Source: a virus. Taken from it: 27,913 nucleotides of DNA. The notes under the pieces were generated by a model. That model did no database searches. It saw only the letters and a program-made list of their open reading frames with translations, and was not told where the DNA came from. Of the stretch, positions 2,392-27,913 are shown in pieces. Location: UHGV virus genome UHGV-0785300. One strand, given 5' to 3'. The first letter of the stretch is position 1, and each line of letters begins with the position of its first letter. The translations under genes were made by a program, and so were the position numbers.

Positions 2392-2802
2392 ATGAAATTA
2401 CTGGGATATTTTCGTGAACTCCCAACGGGCACTGAAGGCAAGTTGTTCTCACAGGTGAAAGGGGATGACATCGGCGATACGATGATTCCATTGTACACTC
2501 GTGAACTTCCTGTCGAAGGTGCCTGGGAGCGCCGTGTGGTCGCTGCCGCCAACAAATATGGTGATGTAATCGTCGTTGCTGACCGTCACCACAGCCGATT
2601 CATGAACAGCCAGCTCAAGATCCTGAAAGAAGCAGGCGTCATTAAATCCACCCATACCCGCGAACAGGGCTTCATCGACAACCAGGGCAACTTCCTCACT
2701 CGTGAAGAGGCGTGCATCGTAGCCCGTGAAGCTGGACAGATTAATCAGGTGCGCCTGAAGACAACCCCTTTCCGCGAACTCTTTTCCGAAGACCTCTATT
2801 GA
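2392..2802 (+). CDS. hypothetical protein (136 aa)
   Basis: ORF 4 nt after the previous stop; no confident motif. Confidence 0.4.
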   Translation: MKLLGYFRELPTGTEGKLFSQVKGDDIGDTMIPLYTRELPVEGAWERRVVAAANKYGDVIVVADRHHSRFMNSQLKILKEAGVIKSTHTREQGFIDNQGNFLTREEACIVAREAGQINQVRLKTTPFRELFSEDLY

Positions 2803-2809
2803 AGAAAAA

Positions 2810-2827
2810 GGCGGTATTATTACCGCC
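2810..2827. terminator. stem-loop GGCGGTA-TTAT-TACCGCC flanked by an A-run (5') and a weak T-rich tract (3')
   Basis: 7-bp perfect inverted repeat 8 nt after the stop at 2802; U-tract weak on the + strand, better on the - strand. Confidence 0.3.
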
Positions 2828-2852
2828 TCGACCTCTTGTTTGGTAACATCAA

Positions 2853-6474: not shown

Positions 6475-6497
6475 ATAAAGATTCAGCGGTTATTGAA

Positions 6498-6528
6498 GAA
6501 GGGGAGTATATACTCCCCTTCGTTTATT
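6498..6528 (+). terminator. rho-independent terminator (GAAGGGGAGU-AUAU-ACUCCCCUUC then GUUUAUU)
   Basis: Perfect 10-bp inverted repeat 24 nt after the stop at 6474, followed by a T-rich tract. Confidence 0.55.
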
Positions 6529-14904: not shown

Positions 14905-16327
14905 TACTCTTCTCCAACAGGAATGCGATGTTTTCGATGTACGCTTTCTGTATCGCATAGACTTCATCCAGTGTGTTGGCCACTTTCTTGTCAATGCGGA
15001 CTTCTACAAGGCGAGGTAGGAACAAAGACTTCATCGCATCATCGGTCTTATCCTGTACGCCATTGGAGAGCACTGCGGCGATCTTGCCAATGTAGTCGCC
15101 CTGGTTCTCCCACATATGGCGTCTCAGCTCATCTGAGATCCCTGATACGCCAACAACAAGCAGGCTGTCGGAAGTTTTACAAATCAGTGAGCCAAAAGTC
15201 TTGGCGTGTTTACCCTTCTTGTCAGCCTCGTTGAAGCCCACGATTTCAAGGTCACACTCAACCTCCATCTTCAGCTTCAGACCTTCAGAAGAAGTACCAT
15301 CTTCCCACGGCATGTCTGCGGCCTTACATATCGTGCCTTCTTCTTTGCGAGCCAGCGCGTCTTTGAAGTGGTCGACGGCTTCGGCAAATGAGTGAACAAC
15401 GCGGGTTTCTTGAACCTGAACCAGACCGTCGTCTTCATCAAACAGTTGCTGGATAATATCGAAGCGGCGCTCATACGGGGTGTCCACGCGCTGGGCGTTG
15501 AACCAGTTGTCGTACGGGATAACATCCCACACCCGGTAGATCACCCGATAACGATCTTCTAGGGGTTCTCCTGTCTGAATCACGCTGTTGAGTTTACCGT
15601 TACCGACAGCACGAGGCAGGATGGTATTCGACTTGAGGTCAACAACGAGAAGTTCACCATGGAACACACTCTCACCAATCCCCGCATCGTAGATCAGGTC
15701 TTTGAACACCAGTGAAAGGTTATCAACCGAACCACCTGCGATAAGGGAACCGGAGCGAGAGCGAATCTCAGGCTCTTTATTGTACCGACATATGATGTTG
15801 GCGAACATGCCGTCTGACTTCAGCTGGCTGTAGACGCCGCGCTTGAAGTCCATCTTCTTCAGCAGGTCAATCGTCATGTTGTCATAACGATGATACGGAA
15901 GAATGTTGATCAGGCGTCCAGTGCCTCCGGCGGCGTTGAATGCAGCGTTGATGCCCTTCTCAGCGATACCCGCCTTGATATCACGGTCTAGGATCATCTG
16001 AATGAGTTCGTGGTATTGGGGGTCCATCTTCAGGGCGACAGAGGCCAACAGGGCATCAGCCTTTTGGCCACCGACAAGGCGCTGCGCCATCTGGTCGAGG
16101 ACGCCATAGACTTCGCTGATGTCATCAGTCTTCTCACGGACGAGCATGCGAGGGTACGCGCTGAGCTTCAACTCAGTCCGATAGAACGACGTCATTGGGT
16201 CATAGACATATTGCAGGAAGTCTGCCAAGTCTGGGTTGTTCTTGAATGCTTCGGTCAGCACAGCTTTCTTCGCATTGCTGCCTTTGGTTTCGCGAAGTCG
16301 GTGGACTGTTTCAAGGATAGGGATCAT
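14897..16327 (-). CDS. ATP-dependent DNA ligase (T4 gp30-like)
   Basis: Adenylation motif I LKSDG (KxDG) in YSQLKSDGMFANI; N-terminal ILETVHRL...GSNAKKAVL resembles the T4 ligase N-terminus; 476 aa. Confidence 0.8.
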   Translation of the reverse strand: MIPILETVHRLRETKGSNAKKAVLTEAFKNNPDLADFLQYVYDPMTSFYRTELKLSAYPRMLVREKTDDISEVYGVLDQMAQRLVGGQKADALLASVALKMDPQYHELIQMILDRDIKAGIAEKGINAAFNAAGGTGRLINILPYHRYDNMTIDLLKKMDFKRGVYSQLKSDGMFANIICRYNKEPEIRSRSGSLIAGGSVDNLSLVFKDLIYDAGIGESVFHGELLVVDLKSNTILPRAVGNGKLNSVIQTGEPLEDRYRVIYRVWDVIPYDNWFNAQRVDTPYERRFDIIQQLFDEDDGLVQVQETRVVHSFAEAVDHFKDALARKEEGTICKAADMPWEDGTSSEGLKLKMEVECDLEIVGFNEADKKGKHAKTFGSLICKTSDSLLVVGVSGISDELRRHMWENQGDYIGKIAAVLSNGVQDKTDDAMKSLFLPRLVEVRIDKKVANTLDEVYAIQKAYIENIAFLLEKSNG

Positions 16328-16336: not shown

Positions 16337-16369
16337 CCAGGGTTATATGTGCTGTTATTATAACCCTGG
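16337..16369 (-). promoter_or_regulatory. 11-bp perfect stem-loop in the ligase 5' leader, overlapping the SD
   Basis: CCAGGGTTATA-(11 nt)-TATAACCCTGG; the 3' arm ends in ...CCCUGG and runs directly into GAGACACCAC-AUG, so the GGAGA SD is partly inside the stem. Confidence 0.4.
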
Positions 16370-16441
16370 GGACTTCAATAGATTATTGGCGGGTGTGGGA
16401 TCTTGCTTGGCTGATAATGACCGCAAATGTTTCTGTATCCA

Positions 16442-17016: not shown

Positions 17017-17625
17017 TTATTTGCTCAGGCTGGCGAGGTAGTTGTCGGCTTCGATAGACGACGGGCTGTTGGCGGAGTAGCTCGAATCAGCGATTTCGGT
17101 TTCGCGCAGGATGGCATCGATATCGATGGTGGTCATACCAGCGGCATAATCGATATCTTCAGGGAGCACCAGACCCAGGTCGTTCGTCTCTTTCTGAACA
17201 CGAACCAGCTCGAGATTGGACTTGACTTCGTCCAGTTTGTCACCCAGCTGGATGATCGCACCGTTCAGTTTGTCGCTGCTTGCTTCGATGTCCTTCACCT
17301 GAGACAACAGGGCTTCACCGATACGGCGGCGATGCAGAATAATCAGGGCGTCGGCGCGGGTTGGTGTGACACCACGAGCGATGGCATCCTTCAGAACTTC
17401 TTCGCGCTTGGCGGCTTCACTCAGGTTCTGTTCTGCGGTCTTCTTCAGCTTGACGCCGTTGCGGACGTTGGTGACACGGGCTTCCTCCAGGCGACGGATT
17501 TCGTCAGACAGCTTGCGAGCAGCCAGGTTCAGGCGCTTTTCGGTGTCGGTCAGTTTATCCAGACTTGTGGTGACGTTGGCTTCAACAGTGGTGAAGATGC
17601 GTTTCAGTAAGTTTTTCAGTGACAT
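17017..17625 (-). CDS. PspA/IM30 (phage-shock protein A)-like coiled-coil protein
   Basis: N-terminal FTTVEANVTTSLDKLTDTEKRL resembles the PspA [21 protein letters not shown] motif; heptad-like charged helices throughout; about 200 aa. Confidence 0.45.
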   Translation of the reverse strand: MSLKNLLKRIFTTVEANVTTSLDKLTDTEKRLNLAARKLSDEIRRLEEARVTNVRNGVKLKKTAEQNLSEAAKREEVLKDAIARGVTPTRADALIILHRRRIGEALLSQVKDIEASSDKLNGAIIQLGDKLDEVKSNLELVRVQKETNDLGLVLPEDIDYAAGMTTIDIDAILRETEIADSSYSANSPSSIEADNYLASLSK

Positions 17626-17642: not shown

Positions 17643-17984
17643 TTATTTCTTCGGGGGTTCAATTGAGGTGAAAGAATCCTTCCAACTCTTGAATTTTTCA
17701 ACCAGGGCTTCTTTACCCAGCTCGTCATTTGACACGCTGTGAATATAGGCGAATGCTCCATAGCCGTATCCTGGCATAGCCTTGCAGATGCGCAGACTGA
17801 CCAAAGAATCTCCTACGGAAACAAGATAGTGGTCACGACGATTGTTCAGGGCATAGTGGTTGTCGTGAAACTTGTCAACAATAACACAGTTCTGAGGTTC
17901 GACGTCAATCGGTAGCCCGTTGGCTTCGGATCCGCCGCGCCCAAGTACGCAGCCTGGGAATAATGTTTCTACGAGTGTAGTCAT
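17643..17984 (-). CDS. hypothetical protein (113 aa)
   Basis: ORF with AGAAGGAA SD; preceded by a promoter-like element. Confidence 0.4.
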   Translation of the reverse strand: MTTLVETLFPGCVLGRGGSEANGLPIDVEPQNCVIVDKFHDNHYALNNRRDHYLVSVGDSLVSLRICKAMPGYGYGAFAYIHSVSNDELGKEALVEKFKSWKDSFTSIEPPKK

Positions 17985-18012
17985 GGTCTGTTCCTTCTGT
18001 AAGTTCCCATGT

Positions 18013-18041
18013 ATTATATGGGTGAATAGTTTATTGAATTA
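18013..18041 (-). promoter_or_regulatory. candidate promoter: TAATTCAATAAA box, 11 nt, TATAAT
   Basis: Minus strand reads TAATTCAATAAActattcacccaTATAAT about 29 nt upstream of the ATG at 17984; the same composite motif recurs at 20581..20611 and 26816..26842. Confidence 0.35.
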
Positions 18042-18237
18042 TTTGTTATGAAACCCAGAGCCTTGTGGACTTCTTCACGATTTTTAATTTCGGCCTGAGC
18101 CTCTGTGCGATTAATCTAGCGCTTGTGATGTCGGGAGAGGGCTTTGTAAACAAGCCTTGGCGTCAATGGCATCGATTAGACAACGGATCTCAGCGCATCA
18201 GGGGCTTGCCAACAGCCAATTGAAATACTTGCGCATG

Positions 18238-18450
18238 TCACTTCCTCATCAGTGAGAGTAGGTTGACCGTAGCCGGACGCGCATCAGGGGCGTAGAAGAC
18301 GTCCTGAGAGTGCCTCTTACAGCACGGGCAATCCTTCGTGGCGATTACACAGGGAGCCTTGCTTACGGCAAATCCGGCGGCTTCGGCTTCCTTCACAGTG
18401 GTGAATGGCAGGTAAGCACTTGTGCCCTGTCCTCCGCATGAACATTCCAT
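18238..18450 (-). CDS. small Cys-rich protein (70 aa)
   Basis: CxC...C...CxCC cluster; start ATG overlaps the stop of an upstream 38-codon ORF. Confidence 0.35.
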   Translation of the reverse strand: MECSCGGQGTSAYLPFTTVKEAEAAGFAVSKAPCVIATKDCPCCKRHSQDVFYAPDARPATVNLLSLMRK

Positions 18451-18566
18451 CAGCGTTTCCTCTTAAAGGGGATGACCAGGGCTATGATGAGAAGCATAGC
18501 TGTAATCATCCCACATGCTATCAGACCAAAGGCGAACGACTTCAGAACAAACTCAATCAAATTCAT
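18450..18566 (-). CDS. tiny single-pass membrane protein (38 aa), absent from the supplied ORF track
   Basis: By hand translation: MNLIEFVLKSFAFGLIACGMITAMLLIIALVIPFKRKR; ATGA overlaps at both ends. Confidence 0.3.
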   Translation of the reverse strand: MNLIEFVLKSFAFGLIACGMITAMLLIIALVIPFKRKR

Positions 18567-19768
18567 AATTTCCTCAATTTGGCTCTAGTGACCTGAGTTT
18601 GTTTAACGCCGTTGTACTCAGTCAGTTCTTTGACACGACCACGGATGATCATATCGCCCTGCAAGAACTCTGTATCCATATAAGAGGTCTTCCAGGTAAT
18701 TGTATTGCCTTCTGCTGTTTTGAAAGTAAACAGGTAACTATCACCATATTCATTGGAGAAGAGGAAGGTGCGCTTGTCGAACCTGACTTGAACTTCCAGC
18801 ATTTCACCGACTTCACCCACCCATTTGTTCTCCGCCTTGCGGTCAGTACGAGGACGATGGATGTAATCGTAATACTTCTTGGCACCCCAGCGGACTGTGT
18901 TGTTATCCTTGATGAGGTGATAGCCGGGTTCACACATGCGTTTCAGGCGAACATTGAACTCATTAGATTCGGACAGCGCACTGATGAAAAGCTTCATATG
19001 GTACATTTCCGACTCGGCATCTTCACGGTATTCGTGTGCCTTGTTTACGAAATACTCTTCATCGGAACCTGCTTTTGGTTTCTGGTGAGACCGGACATAG
19101 CCCAGTACTTTGTCAAACAGTTCAGACTTGATATCCACGCCTGCCAGCATCACCTGGAAGCATGCGCGCAGGTAACTGTGGGTGTCGGTGAAGCGCTCAT
19201 TTTGGACGCGATATATACCCTCTGGGTCGTCCTCGTCTGGCATGAAGAACTCTTGGATTTCCAGATAGTAAGACATAATCGCGTCAAGGGACTTCTGATG
19301 AGGCACATAATGATGCATACAGGTGCTACCAATCAGCATCTGGGTATGCGTTTCCTCATTTTCAATCACATACGTGTTCTTGCGACGGATGGCTAGATTG
19401 CAATGCTGACACCAAGAGACGTTCTCTGTCTCGAAGCGACGGATGAAGTCAGGATTGATGTTGTCGGACAGGCGGTTAAGAATAACCTTTGGATATTCGT
19501 GATTGAACTGACCGATGATCTTCCAGCCGCCATAAGAGATGGGGCGGTCAATGCCTTCGCCTTCGAGAGTAACAGGTTTCCACCAGTGGGTAAGGATCTC
19601 ACCAGTGAAGTCGCGGGTGTGGGTTTTGAAGGGTTCACCATAAGTCACAGTCGGAAACGGAACACCCAACCTTTCGGCAGTGCGCTCGAGCTTCTTCAAT
19701 CGCTCAACTACCAACCCTTCATTGTCGATCGGAATATTGAATGTTTTGACGTTCATTTCCAGCCTCAT
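18563..19768 (-). CDS. hypothetical protein with CxxC...CxHH zinc-binding cluster (about 401 aa)
   Basis: Long ORF; the track start is a TTG, so start set at the first ATG (MRLEMNV...); motif WCQHCN...STCMHHY. Confidence 0.5.
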   Translation of the reverse strand: MRLEMNVKTFNIPIDNEGLVVERLKKLERTAERLGVPFPTVTYGEPFKTHTRDFTGEILTHWWKPVTLEGEGIDRPISYGGWKIIGQFNHEYPKVILNRLSDNINPDFIRRFETENVSWCQHCNLAIRRKNTYVIENEETHTQMLIGSTCMHHYVPHQKSLDAIMSYYLEIQEFFMPDEDDPEGIYRVQNERFTDTHSYLRACFQVMLAGVDIKSELFDKVLGYVRSHQKPKAGSDEEYFVNKAHEYREDAESEMYHMKLFISALSESNEFNVRLKRMCEPGYHLIKDNNTVRWGAKKYYDYIHRPRTDRKAENKWVGEVGEMLEVQVRFDKRTFLFSNEYGDSYLFTFKTAEGNTITWKTSYMDTEFLQGDMIIRGRVKELTEYNGVKQTQVTRAKLRKL

Positions 19769-19829
19769 GATGTAGTTGTAACTCTTCAATACAGATTAAA
19801 TATTAGGCGATTATTTCTTGAAAGTAAAG

Positions 19830-19864
19830 TTTTTGAATTTAAAAGCCCAGTACTTGACTGGGCT
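19830..19864 (-). terminator. stem-loop AGCCCAGU-ACUUG-ACUGGGCU with a short U-run on the minus strand
   Basis: Perfect 8-bp inverted repeat 19 nt downstream of the stop at 19883; followed on the minus strand by UUUUAAAUUC. Confidence 0.4.
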
Positions 19865-19882
19865 TCTTGGTGTTCGATTGAC

Positions 19883-20197
19883 TTATTCGCCACTGACATT
19901 CGGATCTCGATCGGGCTTGGCGTTCGGGAATAGAGACTCGTATAAGTCTTGATATTTCTCGCTCGTTTCGATCGTCTTATGGTAAGTTCCATTGGCGCGG
20001 TCGGATACAACCTTGCGCAAGTCGCTGGCCTTGATACCCGTGTCTTTCGCCAGCTCGGCCAGAGTCTCAGTAATGAAAGTCTGTTCCGACTTGATGCGGA
20101 CCTGGGCGGCACGACAGTTTTCAATTGCACCTATCAGCTTGCGACGGGATTCAGGATCAGATGGTAGTACATAAAAACCGATTTGTTCTACAGACAT
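19883..20197 (-). CDS. hypothetical protein (104 aa)
   Basis: ORF with plausible SD; no confident motif. Confidence 0.4.
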   Translation of the reverse strand: MSVEQIGFYVLPSDPESRRKLIGAIENCRAAQVRIKSEQTFITETLAELAKDTGIKASDLRKVVSDRANGTYHKTIETSEKYQDLYESLFPNAKPDRDPNVSGE

Positions 20198-20212
20198 TTG
20201 GTGTTCCTCTTG

Positions 20213-20548
20213 TTAAGATCTCATGCCTTGTGGGATCAGATTAGTCCCGCAACGGCGTAAAAAGAAGTTTACGATTGAGTGATACTGGAACTTCGGGATG
20301 ATCTCTACACCATCTTCCGTCGTATACCATTCCACTGTGTTGGTGCGCACTGGAAGGGGGAATGACGGCAGATCCAGATGTACGAGTTCACCCTCTTGGC
20401 ATATCATACCAATTCCATATTCCTCCCAGATTTTACGATTGTTGAAGAACTCCAGAGTCTGCTCCGGACTCAGCTCAATCGCTTGTTTGGTGTGGCACAC
20501 CTGTTTGGCGGCCTGCACCAGGCCAGCCATAAAATCATTGTGTGACAT
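20213..20548 (-). CDS. hypothetical protein (111 aa)
   Basis: ORF with AGGAG SD 6 nt upstream, preceded by a promoter-like element. Confidence 0.4.
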   Translation of the reverse strand: MSHNDFMAGLVQAAKQVCHTKQAIELSPEQTLEFFNNRKIWEEYGIGMICQEGELVHLDLPSFPLPVRTNTVEWYTTEDGVEIIPKFQYHSIVNFFLRRCGTNLIPQGMRS

Positions 20549-20580
20549 GATGTGCTCCTGGTTTATATTCAGATCATAGA

Positions 20581-20611
20581 ATTATACCCTATGACCCGCT
20601 TTATTGAATTA
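20581..20611 (-). promoter_or_regulatory. candidate promoter: TAATTCAATAAA box, 13 nt, TATAAT
   Basis: Minus strand reads TAATTCAATAAAgcgggtcatagggTATAAT immediately after the helicase stop and about 32 nt upstream of the ATG at 20548. Confidence 0.35.
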
Positions 20612-20612
20612 C

Positions 20613-22037
20613 CTAGAATTTCCAATTATTGACTGTTTGGGCTTTCTGCTCATCGCTGGCAGCAGCCCCGGACTTGTTGAGGTCATGTTTGATGTGTACG
20701 TTTTCGACATATTTGGCCTCAGCCTCAGTCAGGTCCTTCTTAACTTCGTTCCAGTCCAGGTCAAACAGGATCTGTTTGTCTTGGTCCATACCAAACAGGA
20801 ATGATTTCAGCTTCTGCTTGTTGGCATAACGGTTCTTGAGTATTGAGGCTCGGGCTTTCTTGACCGCCGCCAGTTCGTCAGGAGCATAGAATGCCATGAT
20901 GAAGTCGGCCACCTTCGGAATACCGATAGCATCTGCCAAATCACTGATTCCACCATCAGTGCTATTCTGATTCTCACGATTGAACTGCATACCAGTCCAT
21001 ACAGGGACATCAAACTCAAATCCCAGCGCACGAAACTCACGAGCCACAGACGTGTAATAGACGTTCGTGTTCTGCATCAGGTGGGCAGGCAGGCGTGAGG
21101 AAGCAGCTTCGCCAAGATAGTCAATAACGATAACATCAGGAGCACGACCAGTTGCCTGGATGTACTCAAGGATATCGCGGCGGAATAAACCTGTGTGTCC
21201 AGTACCAGAAGGATATTCCTTGATGACGATATCACCCTTGGGCGCACCATCTTGGCGACTGCGGAGCTTCTCTATCGTTGCAATATACTCGTGCCTTGTG
21301 AGTTTCTCTAAAGACTCAAAGTCGCGTCGCATGATACGGGCATCAAGACGGTGTCGCCAGACGTTCTCGGCCACTTCAAGGGTGAAGACAAAGACGTTCA
21401 GCCCCTGCTCCGAGTACCCTGCGGTCAGGTCAATCAGCGTTGTGGTCTTACCTGCGTTGATCGCACCTGTTACGATGTTCAGTGTCTTCTTACCAACGCC
21501 ACCACGTGTCGCCTTATTGAATATCTCAACTGCGAACGGGATCTTGGCCTCGTTGGAGTTCATGTGGTCATACTGCTCTGCCGCCATCTCCCAATAGATG
21601 TGACCGAGGTATGAATCAAACCGGATCGCCAGGGCTTCCTGCAACATGGTCGGGATGTTGTTCATCTCGTCCTTGCGCTTCTCGTCACCGTAGATGTTAA
21701 CGGCGGTCTTGATTGCGTTGTGTACGGCCTTTTGCCGCGCCCAAGCCTCGGTTTCCTTCGCCAGCCACTCTTCATTGAAGGTGTTGTCGTTGATGTTCTC
21801 CAGGGCAGATACCGCCTGGTCAAACACATATTCGTTCAGCTTTGTCCGTTCAAGAATGATAGATAGTGCTTCGACAGACGGGCGGGCATTGTACTCTGAG
21901 GTATAACTGTCAATCAGACCAAAGATGACCTTTTCGCCTTCGTTGTCAAAATAATCGGCTTTCAGGTACGGCAGGATCTTTCTTTGGTAATCTTCATTGT
22001 AAATCAACTGTGAAAGCACGACAGATTCGAGTAACAT
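20613..22037 (-). CDS. replicative DNA helicase (DnaB-like, T4 gp41-type)
   Basis: 474 aa; Walker A GAINAGKTT; DnaB-like domain order; sits downstream of uvsX as in T4. Confidence 0.8.
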   Translation of the reverse strand: MLLESVVLSQLIYNEDYQRKILPYLKADYFDNEGEKVIFGLIDSYTSEYNARPSVEALSIILERTKLNEYVFDQAVSALENINDNTFNEEWLAKETEAWARQKAVHNAIKTAVNIYGDEKRKDEMNNIPTMLQEALAIRFDSYLGHIYWEMAAEQYDHMNSNEAKIPFAVEIFNKATRGGVGKKTLNIVTGAINAGKTTTLIDLTAGYSEQGLNVFVFTLEVAENVWRHRLDARIMRRDFESLEKLTRHEYIATIEKLRSRQDGAPKGDIVIKEYPSGTGHTGLFRRDILEYIQATGRAPDVIVIDYLGEAASSRLPAHLMQNTNVYYTSVAREFRALGFEFDVPVWTGMQFNRENQNSTDGGISDLADAIGIPKVADFIMAFYAPDELAAVKKARASILKNRYANKQKLKSFLFGMDQDKQILFDLDWNEVKKDLTEAEAKYVENVHIKHDLNKSGAAASDEQKAQTVNNWKF

Positions 22038-22043
22038 TGGCCA

Positions 22044-22373
22044 CTACCCCACCAAAAATTTATTATATTCCTGAGCATTACGCTGCATGAGGTCTACAAG
22101 GATATCCCCTGACACCTCAGTGAACAAGTCATTTTCTTTCAAATTCACAAACATCAGACGCAATGGTTTCTTCAATATATCAGTCACGAAAGACAGGCGG
22201 GGTTCGCCGTCCACTTCGTTGATGGCCACCTTGCCGAACCGGAATTGAACACCACGGAATTTGCCAGAAGTGATCTTGATGATCGCCAGCTGATCAGCAC
22301 CAGGGTCGATGATTGTGTAGTTATTGGGGGAGTCTCCTCCCCCTCCACTGTTATTCGCTTGTGTTGATAACAT
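22044..22373 (-). CDS. hypothetical protein at the T4 gene-40 position
   Basis: Start placed at the internal ATG (MLSTQANNSGGGGDSP...), which still overlaps the uvsX 3' end by about 23 nt; assignment by position only. Confidence 0.3.
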   Translation of the reverse strand: MLSTQANNSGGGGDSPNNYTIIDPGADQLAIIKITSGKFRGVQFRFGKVAINEVDGEPRLSFVTDILKKPLRLMFVNLKENDLFTEVSGDILVDLMQRNAQEYNKFLVG

Positions 22374-23436
22374 GGTCCATTTGCTCCAGCATGTTAGCAG
22401 GCATAACAGTACCGTTAGAAACACCGAACATTTTCTTCACGTCATCGGCGAAGTTGACATTCTCCAGCAGCGGATACCAGAAATCATCACCCATCTGACG
22501 CTTCTGATATTTCTTTTCCTTCTCAGGATCGAAGCCGCCCTTGGCTGTACGCACATACCAGCCGGAAGACGGCATATCAACATAACCCAGAGCACGAGCG
22601 ATCTCAAGCAGGCCGCTCCAGCGATCAATACCACCGTTGTACAGTACCGTCACAGGGAGCTTGGCTTTCTCTTTGACATGGCGACCTTTCATGATGCTTA
22701 TGTTGAAGTTCCAGCCCAGCAGATCTTTGTCTTCCTTCACCTGAGAACGGGTGATAAACCAGATCAAGTTGGAGGATAAGAAGCCCTGCTTGCCGCCTTT
22801 GATGTTGGGCTCGGCATACTGGTTGCCGATCTCATCGTAATAGGAGTTGATCCAAACACACACGAGATTTTTGCTGTTGATTTCGGGAGTCATGACACGC
22901 CAGAAGCTGTTAAGGGCACGGGCGCGGGTCATGTCTTGAGTGTCGTTCCCTTTGATCGCATCTTCAACTTCCTTGGTGGAGGGAAGTTGGCTGATAGAGT
23001 CGATGAAGATTATAACATGGTCGCCTTTCTTGACTTCCTGTAGGATCTGCAGCAAGCGGATCTTGGTCTGTTCAACGTTGTCGATCGGTACGTACAGGAC
23101 GCGGTCCATGTCAATGCCCATAGAGGTCCAGTAATCGGCGTTGGCACCCTTTTCTGAGTCCGCAAAGACGCAGATAGCATCAGGGAACTTGTCCATGTAC
23201 GCCTTGACGTCCACCAGGCCGAACATCGTTTTGAAGGTACGGGAATCACCCACCATCATCTTGATACCGGAGATCAGGCCGCCGTCAATACGCCCAGACC
23301 ATGCGATGTCGATCAGGGGAATACCAGTAGAACAGATGATAGACGGTTCCAGAGCGTCTGATTGGGACAGCACTGAAGCCTGGTCATCGTGTTTCTTAGC
23401 AACCTTCAGCATGCGGTCCATTAATGAACTGGCCAT
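22351..23436 (-). CDS. uvsX: UvsX recombinase (RecA/Rad51 family)
   Basis: GIKMMVGDSRTFKTMFGLVDVKAYMDKFPDAICVFADSEKG closely matches the T4 UvsX Walker-A region (LLILAGPSKSFKSNFGL...YPDAVCLFYDSEFG); AAAGAGGAAG SD. Confidence 0.85.
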   Translation of the reverse strand: MASSLMDRMLKVAKKHDDQASVLSQSDALEPSIICSTGIPLIDIAWSGRIDGGLISGIKMMVGDSRTFKTMFGLVDVKAYMDKFPDAICVFADSEKGANADYWTSMGIDMDRVLYVPIDNVEQTKIRLLQILQEVKKGDHVIIFIDSISQLPSTKEVEDAIKGNDTQDMTRARALNSFWRVMTPEINSKNLVCVWINSYYDEIGNQYAEPNIKGGKQGFLSSNLIWFITRSQVKEDKDLLGWNFNISIMKGRHVKEKAKLPVTVLYNGGIDRWSGLLEIARALGYVDMPSSGWYVRTAKGGFDPEKEKKYQKRQMGDDFWYPLLENVNFADDVKKMFGVSNGTVMPANMLEQMDHVINTSE

Positions 23437-23963
23437 TTCACTTCCTCTTTGTTGTTAATCGTCGTTAGTAAGTCTACACCCATAACCTTCTGGGACAAAA
23501 TGTTAACCGCCTCTTGGATGCTCTTCAGGGACATTGTCTCAACAAGTGACGATGCGTCATTATGCCGGTCGGTTAGGTACATATTGCGCAGATTGTTGTA
23601 GTTCGTGCGGTTGATGCACGCAGTGTTCAGTGCTATATTCAGGATATACATCATCTGTTCAATGGTTATATCCTTTGGCATAGCGTGGATGTAATAGATC
23701 GAGCCTTCAAAATAGACGTCTACCAGTTCATCTGGTATCTTGGTGCCACCACCGGCATACTCTTCGATCATCCTGAACAGAGACTCTGGTTGCTCGCTGG
23801 CGATCTTATGCGTAACAGTCGCCGAAAGACCGTCGCCCGGTTTAACAGGCCTGGTGTATTCGGTAAAGAATACATTATGTCCGCCGCCGATGATGTGCTC
23901 GGCGAATTTGGAGGATGCCTGAGCAGCGTTCTCCGCATGGTATGAAACGACGACTGTAAACAT
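23421..23963 (-). CDS. hypothetical protein (180 aa) within the nucleotide-metabolism operon
   Basis: ATG coupled to the upstream stop; overlaps the uvsX start by 16 nt; no confident motif. Confidence 0.45.
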   Translation of the reverse strand: MFTVVVSYHAENAAQASSKFAEHIIGGGHNVFFTEYTRPVKPGDGLSATVTHKIASEQPESLFRMIEEYAGGGTKIPDELVDVYFEGSIYYIHAMPKDITIEQMMYILNIALNTACINRTNYNNLRNMYLTDRHNDASSLVETMSLKSIQEAVNILSQKVMGVDLLTTINNKEEVKWPVH

Positions 23964-24517
23964 TAGAACTCCAGGGTCAGAGGGGTTTCTGCGGACTTGT
24001 CGTAATCCGCGCCACCAGAAGCACGTAGACGATTGCGATCGTTCTTGCGTTTGTGCGCCAGTATGTAAGTCTCAATGTCGATCTCCATATAAGAACACGC
24101 AGACGACAGGAAGAACATGAGAGTCTCAACGCAAGGATCGTTCATGAATTGCCCAAGGCGGTACGTAACATTGCGATGCCCTGCAACACCCAAAGCACAC
24201 GGGGTGAATTCGCGATTACTAAGGACTTCAAATTCTTCTTCGATCTCACCTTTGGTGCGGTCCACAAGGATGAAGCACAACATGAAGTGTACCACGTCCA
24301 CCAGTTCATAAACTGCGTTCGTATGGTCAAACCCGATGTCGTTGCCATAGACCTTCCAGTCACGGGTGGTTTCATCAAGGAACTCTGCCCACTCACGATA
24401 GATAGAGTTGATGACTGCATTCTGACTCCATACATTCTTCCACTCTTCCCCAAAGTAGGCCACGTTGGTGGCCTTTTGGAGTTCGAGCAGGCTTTGGATA
24501 TGCCCTGCTGTGATCAT
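23963..24517 (-). CDS. putative all-alpha dNTP pyrophosphatase (T4 gp56 dCTPase/dUTPase-like)
   Basis: Acidic helical motifs (EEWKNVW..., EWAEFLDET..., ELVDVVHFMLCFIL) resemble the gp56/dimeric-dUTPase pattern as remembered; ATGA coupling to the dNMP kinase gene. Confidence 0.5.
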   Translation of the reverse strand: MITAGHIQSLLELQKATNVAYFGEEWKNVWSQNAVINSIYREWAEFLDETTRDWKVYGNDIGFDHTNAVYELVDVVHFMLCFILVDRTKGEIEEEFEVLSNREFTPCALGVAGHRNVTYRLGQFMNDPCVETLMFFLSSACSYMEIDIETYILAHKRKNDRNRLRASGGADYDKSAETPLTLEF

Positions 24518-25083
24518 TTACGTTCTCCGTAGAATTTAACGAACGGTGCCCAACCATCAAATGGATTGAGGAATTCGTAGTCCACTTTCATTTGGTCAAT
24601 GAAAGCCTCTATATCGTCCTCTATGATACCAGCACGGTCGGCCTTTGAAATACGGGTGATAGGACATTTCGTACTCAGCGCCCATTCATATTCCTGAGGG
24701 GTACGCAGATCGCTCACGATATAATGGACGTGGGGGTTCTGCTCTACCAAAGGAAGCTGGAAGCGCTTGAAGAATGCCAGGAACAGATCAGGCTGTACGT
24801 AACGCAAGCCCGTATCGCTGCCTAGATGAAGCCAGATCTGCCGTGGAGTTAAGCCCTTGGGGTTATCAGGGTGCACGTAAGGAACGTCCTTCACGGCATC
24901 CTCTACCTCCGCTGGCAGCCATGGATAGATGAAGTTGGCAACCCGGCGCAGTTCATCTGAGAACGAAAGGCGCTGGATGTCCATATCACCCTGTAGTTGG
25001 TGATAGCTGATGAGGGACTCCAAACAGAAGTCCTTGCCGGAACGCTTGCGCCCCGTAAAGAATTCAAGATTTGGGTACATCAT
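24514..25083 (-). CDS. deoxynucleoside monophosphate kinase (T4 gp1-like)
   Basis: P-loop FFTGRKRSGKDF matches T4 gp1 FLSGVKRSGKDT; YIVSDLRTPQEYE resembles gp1 YIVPDTRQDHEMD. Confidence 0.7.
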   Translation of the reverse strand: MMYPNLEFFTGRKRSGKDFCLESLISYHQLQGDMDIQRLSFSDELRRVANFIYPWLPAEVEDAVKDVPYVHPDNPKGLTPRQIWLHLGSDTGLRYVQPDLFLAFFKRFQLPLVEQNPHVHYIVSDLRTPQEYEWALSTKCPITRISKADRAGIIEDDIEAFIDQMKVDYEFLNPFDGWAPFVKFYGERK

Positions 25084-26126
25084 ACTACACCTTCCAGGAA
25101 CTTAGGATCAACGATCTTGCGGTCAACCGGAGAATGGGTGAGCGCGGTGTTCAATCCATGATCCTGAATCAGGTCCAGGTTAATGAGCTTGTTATTCAAT
25201 TTGCAGTGCAGGCAGTATGCCATCTGCACAATCAGACCGCGATCCGCATCATACTCCTTCAGGAAGGCAACAACAGTTTCCCAAGGACTACCGAAGTCAC
25301 AATGAACAAGCACGCCAGTGAACAGATCGCGGATATGGTTCTGGTTGGTCACGTTCGTGAAGTGGATCATGGAGTTGATGAACCCAGCTTCTACTTTGGT
25401 GTCCTTCGTGATCTTGCCCAGCTGCTTCTGGCTGACTTCATTGTTGTAGTAATGAAGATTGTTAGAGAATAGCTTGTACTGACCGACATCAACATCCAAC
25501 ACCCGAGCAATCACTTCCTGAAGAATAGAGAACTCAATGAAGTTGATTGAACTCATACCCCACAGAACATCCTGTGAGCGATTGATAACCGTCAGGTTCA
25601 GACGACCTTCAACGATGGCGAACAACAGAGCCAGGTTACACACCATGTCCTTAGTCTTCGCTTCGCCGCTCTCGCTGAACTTCGCCAGACCAGCATCCGA
25701 ATCCAGAGCCGGATCATAGATGGTGAGGTACGCCTGGCGAGTGTTTGGATTCTTGCGCAGGCGGTTGATGACGCTATCCAGCTGGCCATGGGCGTACAGA
25801 CGCGGACCATAAGCGGCTCGCCATGTGTGGCCGTTGTCGGAAAAGTTGGCGGCGCGGGGCAACACGCGGGACAGGAAGCGAACGTCATCGCGCCCGGACA
25901 GAACCCAGAAGGTCTCGCCGATGGCAGCGATAGCCGATGAGTTACGACCTTCAACGGATAGCCAGCGGTCACGGATGTCGGCGACGGTTATGGTCACGCC
26001 ATCAAGGAAGCGGGTGCTATCAGTATTGATTTCAGCATTACCAGGATCAGATTCGATCCCGAATTCACGGATAGCCAAGACAGCCTGTTTCAGCATGTCA
26101 TTGTTGTTTATTGCTTTGATTTCCAT
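25080..26126 (-). CDS. thymidylate-synthase-fold pyrimidine hydroxymethylase (dUMP/dCMP hydroxymethylase-like) with C-terminal extension
   Basis: NPNTRQAYLTIY matches the T4 gp42 and TS motif NPDSRRGIMIY; catalytic-Cys context DMVCNLALLF; NRSQDVLWG matches RSNDVVFG/RSCDVFLG; SNNLHYY matches the TS C-terminal motif; 348 aa versus about 250 for gp42. Confidence 0.7.
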   Translation of the reverse strand: MEIKAINNNDMLKQAVLAIREFGIESDPGNAEINTDSTRFLDGVTITVADIRDRWLSVEGRNSSAIAAIGETFWVLSGRDDVRFLSRVLPRAANFSDNGHTWRAAYGPRLYAHGQLDSVINRLRKNPNTRQAYLTIYDPALDSDAGLAKFSESGEAKTKDMVCNLALLFAIVEGRLNLTVINRSQDVLWGMSSINFIEFSILQEVIARVLDVDVGQYKLFSNNLHYYNNEVSQKQLGKITKDTKVEAGFINSMIHFTNVTNQNHIRDLFTGVLVHCDFGSPWETVVAFLKEYDADRGLIVQMAYCLHCKLNNKLINLDLIQDHGLNTALTHSPVDRKIVDPKFLEGVV

Positions 26127-26785
26127 CAGATACTCCCAAAATCACGACAGAGGAATGCCATCACAGCCTGGTCTACTGTTAGGCCGTGAGACTTCATCAT
26201 ACCCGCAGCCACCGTAGGGAACAAGTCTTTATGTCGTTGACAATGGTCATGAACTCTCTCCCACTTCTCAACCACCAGACTTTCATTGAAGTCCACACCG
26301 CCGTTACGTGATTTAACACGGGCGATACACGTTTCAAGAGGAGTGTCCATAAAGAGCACAACCAATTCACGTGGTGGGCGTGTCAGACGGGGGATCCAAG
26401 AACTCAATAATGTGGATGGAATGATACCTTCGAAAATCACATCATATTTCAAGTATTCTGGTTGGTCAGCAATAGACAACGCGAACAACATCTGCTCAGT
26501 GTCCTTCAGGGAATCAACCCCCTTGGACTTCGACTTGTCATATTTACCGATACAGACCACGTTGAACGAAGGACAGACAGTCAGCATGACCTTGCCGTTA
26601 TGGGTCACGACATACGCCTGAGGATCCCTCTCCGCCAGCTGAGACGGCACAGTGGATTTACCGCTACCATTGGAGCCTTTGACGTAGTAGATTTGCCCTC
26701 GTGCTGGGTAGATCCCCTTTACGACGGGTGGTTTAAAGAATGTGTGGACGGGGCGCTTCATCAGCCCCTTCAGGGAGTAGGACAT
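26126..26785 (-). CDS. P-loop nucleotide/polynucleotide kinase-like protein (candidate hydroxymethyl-pyrimidine kinase)
   Basis: Walker A VKGSNGSGKST near the N-terminus; 219 aa; ATGA coupled to the hydroxymethylase gene; GGAGCAG SD. Confidence 0.5.
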   Translation of the reverse strand: MSYSLKGLMKRPVHTFFKPPVVKGIYPARGQIYYVKGSNGSGKSTVPSQLAERDPQAYVVTHNGKVMLTVCPSFNVVCIGKYDKSKSKGVDSLKDTEQMLFALSIADQPEYLKYDVIFEGIIPSTLLSSWIPRLTRPPRELVVLFMDTPLETCIARVKSRNGGVDFNESLVVEKWERVHDHCQRHKDLFPTVAAGMMKSHGLTVDQAVMAFLCRDFGSI

Positions 26786-26815
26786 AAACTGCTCCGATAA
26801 ACAAAAGGAGCTGCT

Positions 26816-26842
26816 ATTATAGCAACCCCTTCATCTATTGAA
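26816..26842 (-). promoter_or_regulatory. candidate promoter: TTCAATAG box, 13 nt, TATAAT
   Basis: Minus strand reads TTCAATAGatgaaggggttgcTATAAT about 30 nt upstream of the kinase ATG at 26785. Confidence 0.35.
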
Positions 26843-26860: not shown

Positions 26861-27697
26861 TTACACAGCTTTCGCTTCAGCCAGAGCCTGTGGAAGCCAT
26901 TCATTGATCGCCTTAACCAGAGACTCAGCATCAGACTCTTTGATCTTCTGACGTTTGGTGAAGGACTTGCCGTTCACGTACAGACTGAAGCCCCAGCCAC
27001 CGGAAACGATAGGCGCAACGTCGACATACGTATTGGTGCGGGCGTGAAGGTTTTCAGGGTTAGCCAGTTCGGTGACCGGGAACTGGAACCAACGCATGTC
27101 TGGGTTCACGTAGCTCAGGAACACACCGGGGACAACACCAGCTTCAATCGCCGCCAAGACCGGACCGTGATTAGAAGCGCGAGCCACGTCAACCATTTCC
27201 TCACGTTTGGTGTGACGGCGTTTACGCTCTACCAGCGCCGCCTGTGGGGTCAGGGTCTTACCCTTCGATGCTTCTTTCAACATAGAAGACGCCAAGGAGC
27301 CGATTTTCGCGTCGGACGGCTGATTGCCTTCTTCCAGCGCCGCGTTGACTGCATCTTCAACCGCGTCTACCGGGGCGTCGGACACTGGGGCTTCACATGC
27401 ATCGGCAGAGATCGGTGCTTCAGCATCAACGGTTTCAGCGACTTTCAGGGATACTTCAGCTTGGGCTTGCTCTTGGGCTTGCGCCAGAGCCTGCTGAGTT
27501 TCTTCCTTCTCTTCGGCGCTCAGACCTTCAATCAGTTCGAAGCCGTTGGCAGCCTGAAGAACACCTTCAACCATACGGCGCAGGGTAACGTTTCCGATGA
27601 TCAGACCTGCTTCTTTGATTTCAGCCTGGATAGCCGCAACGTCTTTGCCTTCAATTTCAATTTTGGTTCCAGAATCCACATGAAGAATATATGACAT
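26861..27697 (-). CDS. hypothetical two-domain protein with acidic Ala/Glu/Gln-rich linker (278 aa)
   Basis: Clear ATG ORF; low-complexity central region (EEKEETQQALAQAQEQAQAE...DAEAPISADACEAPVSDAPVDAVEDAV) between two globular-looking segments. Confidence 0.45.
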   Translation of the reverse strand: MSYILHVDSGTKIEIEGKDVAAIQAEIKEAGLIIGNVTLRRMVEGVLQAANGFELIEGLSAEEKEETQQALAQAQEQAQAEVSLKVAETVDAEAPISADACEAPVSDAPVDAVEDAVNAALEEGNQPSDAKIGSLASSMLKEASKGKTLTPQAALVERKRRHTKREEMVDVARASNHGPVLAAIEAGVVPGVFLSYVNPDMRWFQFPVTELANPENLHARTNTYVDVAPIVSGGWGFSLYVNGKSFTKRQKIKESDAESLVKAINEWLPQALAEAKAV

Positions 27698-27767
27698 AAT
27701 AAAAACCCTTTCGTTATTAAGACCGTATCCGCGGCATATTGTTGTTCTGACTGTGTAGTGAGAACAT

Positions 27768-27795
27768 AATATACTGCATTTTCATAGATGTAAAC
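27768..27795 (-). promoter_or_regulatory. possible sigma70-type early promoter (GTTTAC, 16 nt, TATATT)
   Basis: Read on the minus strand about 70 nt upstream of the ATG at 27697; the -35 resembles the T4 early-promoter GTTTAC. Confidence 0.25.
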
Positions 27796-27913
27796 TACTT
27801 TTTATTGAAAAGAAAGTTAACACCTTAGTGTTATAAGGTGCGCGACCAAGCGGAGCGCGAACTTGCGTGAATATTAACTTTCTACGTCAATATAGAAAAA
27901 CCATTTCCGGTGG

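What the first reader, a model, noticed from the sequence alone, without database searches (positions are those of the whole stretch)
18013..26842. Recurring composite promoter-like element TTCAATAR, 12-14 nt, TATAAT before three minus-strand genes
Three intergenic sites (18013..18041, 20581..20611, 26816..26842) share a TTCAATA(A/G) box 12-14 nt upstream of a perfect TATAAT, each about 30 nt before a start codon in the replication/nucleotide-metabolism region. The box does not match the sigma70 -35 hexamer, and its placement resembles an activator-dependent (T4 MotA-box-like) middle promoter. This suggests a phage-specific transcription programme.
Basis: seen in the sequence. Interest (0 to 1): 0.6.

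Follow-up and report, generated by a model that had tools for sequence, protein, structure and literature searches.

The report
Conserved phage promoter box TTCAATAA
The three sites are real members of a set of about 20 promoter-like elements per genome, shared across a whole family of T4-related phages, in which an unusual 8-base box sits about 12 bases upstream of a standard bacterial -10 signal; what reads the box is unknown.

Summary
TTCAATAR, then 12-14 nt, then TATAAT occurs exactly three times in the window (0 expected), each 28-32 nt before a minus-strand start codon.

The window comes from an Ackermannviridae phage, 97.6% identical to Escherichia phage ZQ1. In ZQ1 and in the distant Salmonella phage Vi01, TTCAATAA is among the 8-mers most enriched in noncoding DNA. 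Box-to-(-10) spacing peaks sharply at 12 nt: 10 sites per genome against about 0.3-0.4 expected. All 10 are intergenic in ZQ1, where annotation allowed the check. Sites 2 and 3 are conserved across four genera.

This geometry matches T4 MotA-dependent middle promoters, where the box lies 12±1 bp from the -10. However, the box sequence differs, and no MotA or AsiA was found.

At sites 2 and 3 the -10 lies inside a conserved RNA hairpin. Site 2 shows compensatory changes; site 3 is also an intrinsic terminator. This is the known PeSL promoter/stem-loop architecture of T4-type phages.

One site was already listed as a putative sigma-70 early promoter in phage AG3.

Verdict: a real, family-wide, phage-specific promoter class. 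Dependence on an activator is plausible but unproven. I rate it a new variant of a known kind, of moderate interest.

The parts
18031..18038 (-). Site 1 upstream box TTCAATAA
   Evidence: Intact in Vi01; one mismatch (TTCATTAA) in ZQ1 and Ag3; no orthologous intergenic region in Klebsiella phage RCIP0012.
18013..18018 (-). Site 1 -10 hexamer TATAAT, 12 nt after the box and 28 nt before the ATG of ORF 17643-17984
   Evidence: The flanking inverted repeat CCCAT/ATGGG (18006-18022) is weak: -5.2 kcal/mol, z = -1.5.
17643..17984 (-). Gene downstream of site 1 (113 aa, unknown function, phrog_5022)
20601..20608 (-). Site 2 upstream box TTCAATAA, starting 5 nt after the stop codon of the gp41 helicase gene
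   Evidence: Conserved (TTCAATAA or TTCAATAC) in Agtrevirus, Limestonevirus, Kuttervirus and Klebsiella phages.
20581..20586 (-). Site 2 -10 hexamer TATAAT, 14 nt after the box
   Evidence: Invariant in 11 distinct orthologues.
20570..20598 (-). Site 2 hairpin enclosing the -10 (13 pairs as RNA, no U-tract)
   Evidence: -14.2 kcal/mol, z = -6.0. On the 10 pairs tested on alignment A2: 90.9% of cells paired against 31-44% when the partner is slid, 3 pairs with compensatory double changes, and one G.U/A-U pair.
20213..20548 (-). Gene downstream of site 2 (111 aa, unknown function)
19883..20197 (-). Second gene of the site 2 unit: 104-aa member of the T4 DsbA family (dsDNA-binding transcription factor)
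   Evidence: phrog_639, E = 8e-31. T4 DsbA hits the same PHROG, E = 2e-40. Pairwise BLASTP finds nothing.
26835..26842 (-). Site 3 upstream box TTCAATAG
   Evidence: Identical in all 20 IMG/VR loci and in Ag3, RC-2014, Vi01 and RCIP0012.
26816..26821 (-). Site 3 -10 hexamer TATAAT, preceded by TGc (extended -10), 13 nt after the box
   Evidence: Listed as Porf067 in AG3 Table S2 and annotated as 'minus_10_signal' in FJ373894.
26794..26832 (-). Site 3 hairpin (26804-26832) plus T-rich tail: intrinsic terminator of the upstream gene, with the -10 at its apex
   Evidence: The terminator scan found 13 pairs and the tail TGTTTATCGG. -18.8 kcal/mol, z = -5.0. Nearly invariant across genera, with G.U/A-U alternation.
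26126..26785 (-). First gene downstream of site 3: 5-hmdU DNA kinase. By annotation of relatives, it is followed on this strand by genes for a thymidylate-synthase-like protein, dNMP kinase, dUTPase, UvsX and gp41.
   Evidence: PF18748, E = 7e-108; annotation of relatives.
2796..2820 (+). Reverse-orientation box CTATTGAA, 11 nt, TATTAT inside the hairpin GGCGGTA/TACCGCC, before ORF 2853-3095
   Evidence: Orthologous sites in ZQ1 (43593) and Vi01 (12535).
6490..6514 (+). Reverse-orientation box TTATTGAA, 11 nt, TATACT between a G-run and a C-run, before ORF 6543-6857
   Evidence: Orthologues at ZQ1 47051 and Vi01 18087.
16357..16381 (-). Reverse-orientation box CTATTGAA, 11 nt, TATAAT, before the DNA ligase gene (14897-16327)
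   Evidence: Orthologues at ZQ1 56944 and Vi01 28194.
27766..27809 (-). TTCAATAA (27802-27809) lying 7 nt upstream of a near-consensus sigma-70 promoter (TTTACA, 17 nt, TATTAT), before ORF 26861-27697
19800..19837 (-). Box variant TTCAAAAA just after a terminator hairpin and just upstream of TTTACT, 17 nt, TAATAT, before ORF 18563-19756
   Evidence: ZQ1 has an exact TTCAATAA in the orthologous intergenic region, overlapping an upstream TTTACT.

Best explanation
The three sites belong to a family-wide class of Ackermannviridae promoters for pre-replicative genes, with roughly 20 copies per genome.

Each has a consensus sigma-70-type -10 hexamer (TATAAT or TATTAT) that host RNA polymerase would recognise. 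Each also has a conserved 8-bp box, TTCAATAA, centred near -29. The box lies 12 nt (range 10-14) upstream of the -10. That is too close, and too unlike TTGACA, to act as a normal -35 element.

Many copies, including sites 2 and 3, are nested in a G-run/C-run hairpin whose apex carries the -10. Read-through transcripts from the upstream gene form this hairpin. It is a full terminator at site 3 and a U-tract-less stem at site 2. Transcripts that start about 7 nt after the -10 lack the 5' arm and so escape the hairpin. This is the PeSL promoter/stem-loop design already known in T4-type phages.

Shown here: the motif, its spacing, its intergenic and co-oriented placement, its conservation across four genera, and hairpin covariation.

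Inferred: that these are active promoters (about 0.85), and that the box is read by a factor other than sigma-70 region 4 in its normal position, i.e. a MotA-like role played by an unidentified protein (about 0.45).
For: - The exact pattern occurs 3 times in the window against 0 expected.
- In ZQ1, 23 of 28 copies of TTCAATAA are in the 12% of the genome that is noncoding, which makes it among the 8-mers most enriched there.
- In Vi01, TTCAATAA and its reverse complement tie for the most frequent 8-mer: 44 copies against about 8 expected.
- Spacing peaks at 12 nt in both genomes: 10 sites each against 0.3-0.4 in shuffles. All 10 ZQ1 sites are intergenic.
- In ZQ1, 9 of 28 intergenic TATAAT hexamers carry the box, against 0 of 44 coding ones.
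- Spacer sequences are unrelated between sites, so the sites are not duplicates.
- Sites 2 and 3 keep the box and the -10 in Agtrevirus, Limestonevirus, Kuttervirus and Klebsiella phages, while the sequence between and upstream of them varies.
- There is no canonical -35: mean best match 2.7 of 6 for the ZQ1 sites.
- The geometry equals that of T4 middle promoters: MotA box 12±1 bp from the -10, with a stringent -10 (PMC2988021).
- Downstream genes are gp32, nrdA, gp44, rIIA, DNA ligase and the hmdU-kinase-to-gp41 block. Structural genes instead carry CTAAATA.
- Hairpins: z = -6.0 and -5.0; compensatory changes at site 2; -10-like hexamers in stems of at least 7 bp number 14 of 193 in intergenic DNA against 5 of 449 in coding DNA.
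- The PeSL description matches: stem-loops 'overlapping the -10 box' (PMC2839356).
Against: - There are no transcript 5'-end or timing data for any Ackermannviridae phage in the library searched.
- No MotA or AsiA homologue was found, and no box-binding protein has been identified.
- Site 3 has an extended -10 (TGcTATAAT), and site 2 has TTCAAT at a tolerable 16-nt spacing. Both could therefore work with sigma-70 alone, as the AG3 authors assumed.
- Site 1 is the weakest. Its box is mutated in ZQ1 and Ag3, its hairpin is not significant, and it is absent in the Klebsiella phage.
- The box also occurs at other positions: 6 nt from the -10 inside early-type promoters, upstream of -35 elements, and in reverse orientation. 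It is therefore not simply a -30 element.
- Thymidine hypermodification of the phage DNA may alter recognition in ways that cannot be assessed here.
Confidence: 0.6

Rival explanations
1. These are ordinary sigma-70 early promoters that need no phage factor. TTCAAT would be a weak -35 hexamer used at a short spacer. A perfect -10, an extended -10 at site 3 and AT-rich upstream DNA would compensate. The box would be conserved only as the best -35 region available in this genome context.
For: - The AG3 authors listed the site 3 orthologue and related sites as putative early promoters on this reading, and the GenBank record carries the feature.
- Site 2 has a 16-nt spacer and site 3 a 15-nt spacer plus TGn.
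- One class member (ZQ1 21385, AG3 Porf237) has TTGATT at 18 nt.
- RB49-type phages without MotA use sigma-70-like PeSL promoters.
Against: - The modal spacing is 12 nt after the 8-mer, which puts TTCAAT 14 nt from the -10, below the range usable by sigma-70 (general knowledge).
- Selection for a -35 should give a peak at 17 nt, not 14.
- TTCAAT matches TTGACA at only 3 of 6 positions, yet it is more strictly conserved than many -10 hexamers.
- The two bases beyond the hexamer (AA) are conserved as well.
- The same 8-mer recurs at other positions and in reverse orientation.
Confidence: 0.28
2. The conserved features act only at the RNA level, as terminator, attenuator, stability or processing hairpins at the ends of upstream genes. 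The box would be a flanking signal and UAUAAU a preferred loop sequence. No transcription would start here.
For: - Site 3 is a textbook intrinsic terminator.
- The site 2 hairpin shows covariation and G.U pairs, which points to RNA.
- The box often directly precedes the stem and follows a stop codon.
Against: - The 12-nt spacing from box to hexamer holds at sites without any hairpin (window site 1; ZQ1 9308 and 113387).
- The hexamer is always a good -10 (TAnnnT, mostly TATAAT or TATTAT) on the coding strand of the next gene, 20-35 nt before its Shine-Dalgarno sequence and start codon at the best-annotated sites.
- Half of the hairpins lack a U-tract.
- In PeSLs with this same layout, promoter activity was shown experimentally.
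Confidence: 0.07
3. The element is recognised by a phage-encoded sigma-like specificity factor other than sigma-70. The candidates are gp55 acting on a second promoter type, or an undetected sigma. Either the box or the hexamer would serve as its -10.
For: - The phage family encodes gp55, gp33 and gp45 homologues.
- The box is AT-rich and lies just upstream of hairpins that could form stabilising 5' ends.
Against: - The likely gp55-type late motif is different (CTAAATA or TATAAATA) and sits before structural genes, not these genes.
- The hexamer is the exact sigma-70 consensus.
- No second sigma was seen in the window ORFs. The only hit is a sub-threshold Sigma70_r4/HTH match in an 83-aa ORF that ZQ1 lacks.
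Confidence: 0.04

Closest known systems
T4 middle promoters (MotA/AsiA sigma appropriation)
   Same: Both combine a stringent sigma-70 -10 with an 8-9 bp phage-specific box about 12 bp upstream (centre about -29 or -30) in place of a -35. Both are placed before replication, recombination and nucleotide-metabolism genes (PMC2988021).
   Different: - The box here is TTCAATAA, not (a/t)(a/t)(a/t)TGCTTtA.
- No MotA or AsiA homologue is detectable.
- The box is also found reversed, 6 nt from the -10, and upstream of -35 elements.
- Nothing has been tested experimentally.
PeSL (promoter-early stem-loop) cassettes of T4-type phages RB49/phi1, T4/PST and KVP40/nt-1
   Same: Both are intergenic composites made of an upstream stop codon, a promoter, a G-run/C-run stem-loop placed between the -35 and -10 or over the -10, and a Shine-Dalgarno sequence with a start codon. 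The stem-loop terminates or attenuates incoming transcription (PMC2839356; PMC4122927; here).
   Different: - PeSL promoters have the consensus sigma-70 -35 at normal spacing.
- PeSLs flank ORFans in hyperplastic regions and mediate shuffling.
- The elements here precede core genes and are kept at orthologous positions across genera.
- They use the TTCAATAA box instead of TTGACA.
Putative sigma-70 early promoters listed for Shigella phage phiSboM-AG3 (Anany et al. 2011, Table S2; GenBank FJ373894)
   Same: The locus is the same. Porf067 'TTcAatagatgaaggggcTGcTATAAT' is the orthologue of site 3. Porf237 and Porf138 also contain the box.
   Different: Each site was found by similarity to TTGACA-N15-18-TATAAT. 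The shared 8-mer, its 12-nt spacing peak, its family-wide conservation and the hairpins were not noted. Sites 1 and 2 were not among the entries shown.

Membership tests
T4-type MotA/AsiA-dependent middle promoter | Sigma-70-type -10 element (TAnnnT, close to TATAAT) | tested here: met
   Perfect TATAAT at all three sites.
T4-type MotA/AsiA-dependent middle promoter | Upstream box 12±1 bp from the -10, replacing the -35 | tested here: met
   Spacers are 12, 14 and 13 nt in the window. The genome-wide mode is 12 nt. There is no canonical -35.
T4-type MotA/AsiA-dependent middle promoter | Box matches the MotA-box consensus (a/t)(a/t)(a/t)TGCTTtA | tested here: not met
   The box is TTCAATAA, with no TGCTT core (consensus from PMC2988021).
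T4-type MotA/AsiA-dependent middle promoter | Phage encodes MotA and AsiA | tested here: not met
   tblastn and phmmer with T4 MotA and AsiA against ZQ1 found no credible hit. All E-values were at or above 0.03, and the best lies inside a topoisomerase gene. No such Pfam family appears in about 28 window ORFs. The literature says they are absent. Analogues detectable only by fold are not excluded.
T4-type MotA/AsiA-dependent middle promoter | Transcription starts at these sites a few minutes after infection and depends on the activator | not testable with these tools
   No expression data were found.
PeSL promoter/stem-loop cassette | Intergenic promoter combined with a stable stem-loop placed between the -35 and -10 or overlapping the -10 | tested here: met
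   Site 2: -14.2 kcal/mol, z = -6.0. Site 3: -18.8 kcal/mol, z = -5.0. Site 1 is weak. The N=12 position matrix shows a G-run before and a C-run after the -10.
PeSL promoter/stem-loop cassette | Stem-loop acts as a terminator or attenuator for upstream transcription | tested here: inconclusive
   Site 3 has a U-rich tail and was called by the terminator scan. Site 2 has covariation but no U-tract. Function was not measured.
PeSL promoter/stem-loop cassette | Promoter identical to the sigma-70 consensus (TTGACA-17-TATAAT) with an AT-rich upstream region | tested here: not met
   The -10 is consensus, but the -35 region is TTCAATAA at the wrong spacing.
PeSL promoter/stem-loop cassette | Repeated cassette that flanks variable ORFans and mediates modular shuffling | tested here: not met
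   The three sites have unrelated spacers and sit at orthologous positions before conserved genes in four genera. A separate early-type cassette with a repeated leader (ZQ1 92015, 125118, 135847) fits this feature better.

The most novel reading that the evidence does not exclude
TTCAATAA could be the operator of an unidentified, family-specific DNA-binding protein that runs an early-to-middle switch without MotA or AsiA.

At about 20 promoters, a single box at -29 would substitute for the -35 and activate transcription of replication genes. At early-type promoters (TTTACT-N16-TATACT), two boxes flank the -35 hexamer 20-22 or 32 bp apart, i.e. two or three helical turns. In one orthologous pair the distance changes from 32 to 22 bp. 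Binding there would shut the promoter off.

This would be a second, independent invention of a sigma-appropriation-like mechanism in T4-related phages, operating on thymidine-hypermodified DNA.
Probability: 0.25. Interest if true: 0.75.

Novelty: new variant of a known kind. Interest (0 to 1): 0.5.

Why it matters
The 2011 CBA120 genome paper stated that early and middle promoters of ViI-like phages could not be found by informatics, and that these phages lack the T4 regulators.

The TTCAATAA-N12-TATAAT class, together with the TTTACT-type early cassettes and the CTAAATA late motif, gives a concrete and testable map of three promoter classes. It applies to a phage family widely used for biocontrol and engineering (CBA120, ViI, LIMEstone, AV101).

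If the box is read by a phage factor, the family would offer a new way of redirecting host RNA polymerase. If it is not, the elements show how far a functional sigma-70 promoter can depart from the -35 rule. In either case the nested promoter/terminator design is useful for annotation and for building expression cassettes in these phages.

Tried and rejected
1. Homologues of T4 MotA, AsiA and DsbA in ZQ1, by tblastn and phmmer: nothing credible.
   - BLASTP of the 104-aa window protein against T4 DsbA found nothing.
   - Both proteins do fall in phrog_639.
2. Pfam, NCBIfam and PHROG scans of about 28 window ORFs and 8 ZQ1 early-type genes, looking for a regulator.
   - The only results were the DsbA-family protein, an HU/IHF-family protein (in ZQ1, outside the window) and a sub-threshold HTH match in an 83-aa ORF that ZQ1 lacks.
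   - None can be tied to the box.
3. Structure prediction of the 111-aa gene behind site 2.
   - The model has 3 helices and 6 strands, the same element count as the MotA C-terminal domain.
4. IHF consensus WATCAANNNNTTR, FNR, sigma-32 and sigma-28 consensus sequences, compared with the box by eye: none fits (my own knowledge of these consensus sequences, not a tool result).
5. Rfam scan of the window: no family.
6. An 11-bp palindrome TTATTCAATAA as the true site: the flanks show only a weak T preference at -3, so it is not supported.
7. Literature searches for the box, or for Ackermannviridae transcriptomes and promoter motifs: nothing relevant in the held library. The Viunalikevirus paper (PubMed 22707043) is not held.
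8. The box as a -10 for transcripts that would begin with the hairpin: rejected, because the stem starts only 1-6 nt after the box.

Full report
**1. The observation**

On the minus strand the three sites read as follows:
- Site 1: aaTTCAATAAactattcacccaTATAATacatggg...ATG.
- Site 2: aaTTCAATAAagcgggtcatagggTATAATtctatgatc...ATG.
- Site 3: gTTCAATAGatgaaggggttgcTATAATagcagctcc...ATG.

The spacers are 12, 14 and 13 nt. The distances from the -10 to the start codon are 28, 32 and 30 nt.

The pattern TTCAATAR-N12-14-TATAAT has exactly these three matches on both strands of the window, and none in 100 dinucleotide-preserving shuffles.

**2. Source of the window**

The region is 97.6% identical to Escherichia phage vB_EcoM-ZQ1. 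It is 98% identical to AV101 and about 91% to Shigella phage Ag3. It matches 276 phage records in all, the listed ones being ViI-like Ackermannviridae phages of Salmonella, Klebsiella, Escherichia, Dickeya and other hosts.

I fetched two whole genomes: ZQ1 and the distant Kuttervirus Vi01. I also fetched the orthologous 12-kb regions of Ag3, Dickeya phage RC-2014 and Klebsiella phage RCIP0012.

**3. The motif is genome-wide and family-wide**

- In ZQ1, 23 of 28 copies of TTCAATAA (both strands) lie in the 12% of the genome that is noncoding. This makes it among the 8-mers most enriched there.
- In Vi01, TTCAATAA and its reverse complement tie for the most frequent 8-mer: 44 copies against about 8 expected. 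Of these, 25 lie in the 8.5% of the genome left uncovered by a crude ORF mask.
- I scored a box with at most 1 mismatch followed by a TAnnnT hexamer with at most 1 mismatch to TATAAT.
  - The spacing histogram has a sharp peak at 12 nt in both genomes: 10 sites each, against 0.3-0.4 in shuffles.
  - There are shoulders at 10-14 nt and a second, smaller peak at 6-8 nt.
  - All ten 12-nt sites of ZQ1 are intergenic.
- Of 28 perfect TATAAT hexamers in ZQ1 intergenic DNA, 9 have the box at the right distance. Of 44 in coding DNA, none does.
- Spacer sequences differ completely between sites, so these are independently maintained elements and not copies.

**4. Conservation of the three sites**

- Site 3: the stretch from the box to the start codon is almost invariant. 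This holds in 20 IMG/VR contigs whose kinase protein is only 76-99% identical, and in Ag3, RC-2014, Vi01 and RCIP0012.
- Site 2: the box and TATAAT are kept in all four genera, while the nucleotides between the box and the stem vary.
- Site 1 is the weakest. Its box is intact in Vi01 but reads TTCATTAA in ZQ1 and Ag3, and the Klebsiella phage has no corresponding intergenic region.

**5. Hairpins around the -10**

As RNA, site 2 folds into a 13-pair stem (-14.2 kcal/mol, z = -6.0). Site 3 folds into a stem scored at -18.8 kcal/mol (z = -5.0). Site 1 has only a 5-pair stem that is not significant.

The tested site 2 helix (10 pairs on alignment A2) has the following properties:
- 90.9% of cells are paired across 11 distinct orthologues, against 31-44% when the partner is slid.
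- Three pairs have changes on both sides: A-U to G-C in Limestonevirus, and two swapped pairs in the Klebsiella group.
- One pair alternates between G.U and A-U, which points to selection on an RNA structure.

Site 3 was independently called as an intrinsic terminator, with 13 pairs and a T-rich tail.

Genome-wide, -10-like hexamers lie in the loop of a perfect stem of at least 7 bp in 14 of 193 intergenic cases and 5 of 449 coding cases. The pooled matrix of 12-nt sites shows a G-run at -16 to -13 and a C-run at -4 to -1.

A transcript starting about 7 nt after the -10 would lack the 5' arm and would not form the hairpin. Read-through RNA from the upstream gene would form it.

**6. Relation to known systems**

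*T4 middle promoters.* Hinton's review gives the T4 middle promoter as a MotA box, (a/t)(a/t)(a/t)TGCTTtA, 12±1 bp from a stringent sigma-70 -10 (PMC2988021). The geometry here is the same, but the box sequence is not.
- T4 MotA and AsiA have no credible match in ZQ1 by tblastn or phmmer.
- No related Pfam family appears among the window ORFs.
- The CBA120 paper states that ViI-like phages lack MotA and AsiA, and that their early and middle promoters could not be identified (PMC3184105).

*PeSL cassettes.* The nested promoter/hairpin layout is the PeSL design described for RB49/phi1 and later for T4/PST and KVP40/nt-1. There the stem-loop is most often between the -35 and -10 or over the -10, and both promoter and terminator activity were shown (PMC2839356; PMC4122927). 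PeSL promoters, however, carry a consensus -35.

*Earlier annotation.* The site 3 orthologue is listed as the putative early promoter Porf067 in Table S2 of the AG3 paper. It is also annotated in GenBank FJ373894. It was read as TTCAAT-15-TGcTATAAT, and the shared box was not noticed.

**7. What the box might be**

It is not a canonical -35:
- The mean best TTGACA match at 16-18 nt is 2.7 of 6 for the ZQ1 sites.
- The modal position puts TTCAAT 14 nt from the -10.

The same 8-mer also occurs in other settings:
- It occurs in reverse orientation 11 nt from a -10 at three sites that are orthologous in ZQ1 and Vi01. All three lie in the window: 2796, 6490, and 16357 before DNA ligase.
- It occurs 6 nt from the -10 inside early-type promoters, TTTACTTCTTCAATAA-N6-TATACT. 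These carry a second box on the other side of the -35. The two boxes are 20, 21, 21, 22, 32, 32 and 32 bp apart, and one orthologous pair differs by 10 bp.
- It occurs just upstream of sigma-70-like promoters at window 27809 and 19837.

Orientation tolerance and helical phasing suggest a protein-binding site, but the numbers are small and partly orthologous. Candidate DNA-binding proteins found are listed below. None is linked to the box by any evidence.
- A T4 DsbA-family protein, encoded by the second gene behind site 2 (phrog_639).
- An HU/IHF-family protein in ZQ1.
- A 'histone family' protein.

**8. Gene classes**

- Box-plus-(-10) elements precede gp32, nrdA, gp44, rIIA, DNA ligase, a deoxyribonucleotidase, the HU-like gene, and the 5-hmdU-kinase / thymidylate-synthase-like / dNMP-kinase / dUTPase / UvsX / gp41 block.
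- TTTACT-type cassettes precede small genes of unknown function.
- CTAAATA precedes structural genes.

This three-way split mirrors the T4 early, middle and late classes. It is inferred from position only.

**9. Verdict**

The promoter reading is well supported by position, orientation, spacing and conservation. The MotA-like reading is supported in geometry only. Membership of the MotA/AsiA system fails on box sequence and on the presence of the proteins.

The architecture belongs to the known PeSL kind, with a distinctive upstream box. The plain sigma-70 reading remains a serious rival, above all for sites 2 and 3. Moderate interest; new variant of a known kind.

Noticed in passing
window 8617-8623 (+); many sites in ZQ1 (L001-L003): CTAAATA (often CTAAATAcc) is strongly enriched in intergenic DNA. 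It sits before structural genes: gp48, tail sheath, tail tube, scaffold, gp14, tail spike, tail fibre and baseplate wedge. It is the likely gp55-type late promoter of this family. The CBA120 paper said the late motif had not been identified.
   Followed up: partly
ZQ1 16276, 85835, 92015, 125118, 135847 (L001-L003); Vi01 58263, 63974, 99224, 144204: These are early-type cassettes TTTACTTCTTCAATAA-N6-TATACT(T), with a second TTCAATAA or TTATTGAA box upstream of the -35. The two boxes are 20-22 or 32 bp apart, i.e. two or three helical turns. Three ZQ1 cassettes (and two of the Vi01 ones) share a ~45-nt leader, and most end in ...GGAACTATATCATG. All precede small genes of unknown function.
   Followed up: partly
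window 19883-20197 (-): This 104-aa ORF belongs to the same PHROG (phrog_639, 'transcriptional regulator') as T4 DsbA, although BLASTP sees no similarity. It is annotated only as hypothetical in ZQ1, Ag3 and Vi01.
   Followed up: partly
window 22351-26785 (-): Site 3 heads a run of genes on this strand that starts with a 5-hmdU DNA kinase (PF18748). It continues with genes for a thymidylate-synthase-like protein, dNMP kinase, dUTPase, a phage ACT-like domain protein (PF24021) and UvsX. This is the thymidine-hypermodification and precursor module. RefSeq-derived names call the kinase 'terminase small subunit', which looks wrong.
   Followed up: partly
ZQ1 72355, 43612, 106425/106991; window 2807-2832: A recurring hairpin of the form (C)GGGGTAT(A/G/T)ATTACCCC(G) or GGCGGTATTATTACCGCC. 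Here the first TA of the -10 pairs with a TA after it, so the -10 is half stem and half loop.
   Followed up: no
window 3693-3944 (+): An 83-aa ORF with sub-threshold HTH hits (Sigma70_r4, GerE, HTH_28; E = 0.006-0.04). It lies in a ~245-nt segment that is absent from ZQ1, so it is a variable small putative DNA-binding gene.
   Followed up: no
ZQ1 101530-101808 (L003 1530-1808); Vi01_107c: A phage-encoded HU/IHF-family protein (E = 2e-20 to IHF-alpha and HU models). Its own upstream region carries TTCAATAT, then 11 nt, then TAAGAT. From memory, Bacillus phage SPO1, which has hmU-containing DNA, uses an HU-family protein (TF1) at its early promoters. This is a lead only.
   Followed up: no
window 17017-17625 (-): A 202-aa ORF with a PspA/IM30 family hit (E = 4e-10). 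It lies downstream of the site 1 gene, and Ag3 annotates the orthologue as T4 e.6-like.
   Followed up: no
ZQ1 66665-67189 versus window 26126-26785: The ZQ1 record starts the kinase gene 135 nt too far downstream. The conserved ATG with a Shine-Dalgarno sequence, 30 nt after the site 3 -10, is used in Ag3 and Vi01. ZQ1 also leaves several conserved regions unannotated (gaps at 9.0-12.7 kb, 103-104 kb and 106.4-107.7 kb).
   Followed up: no
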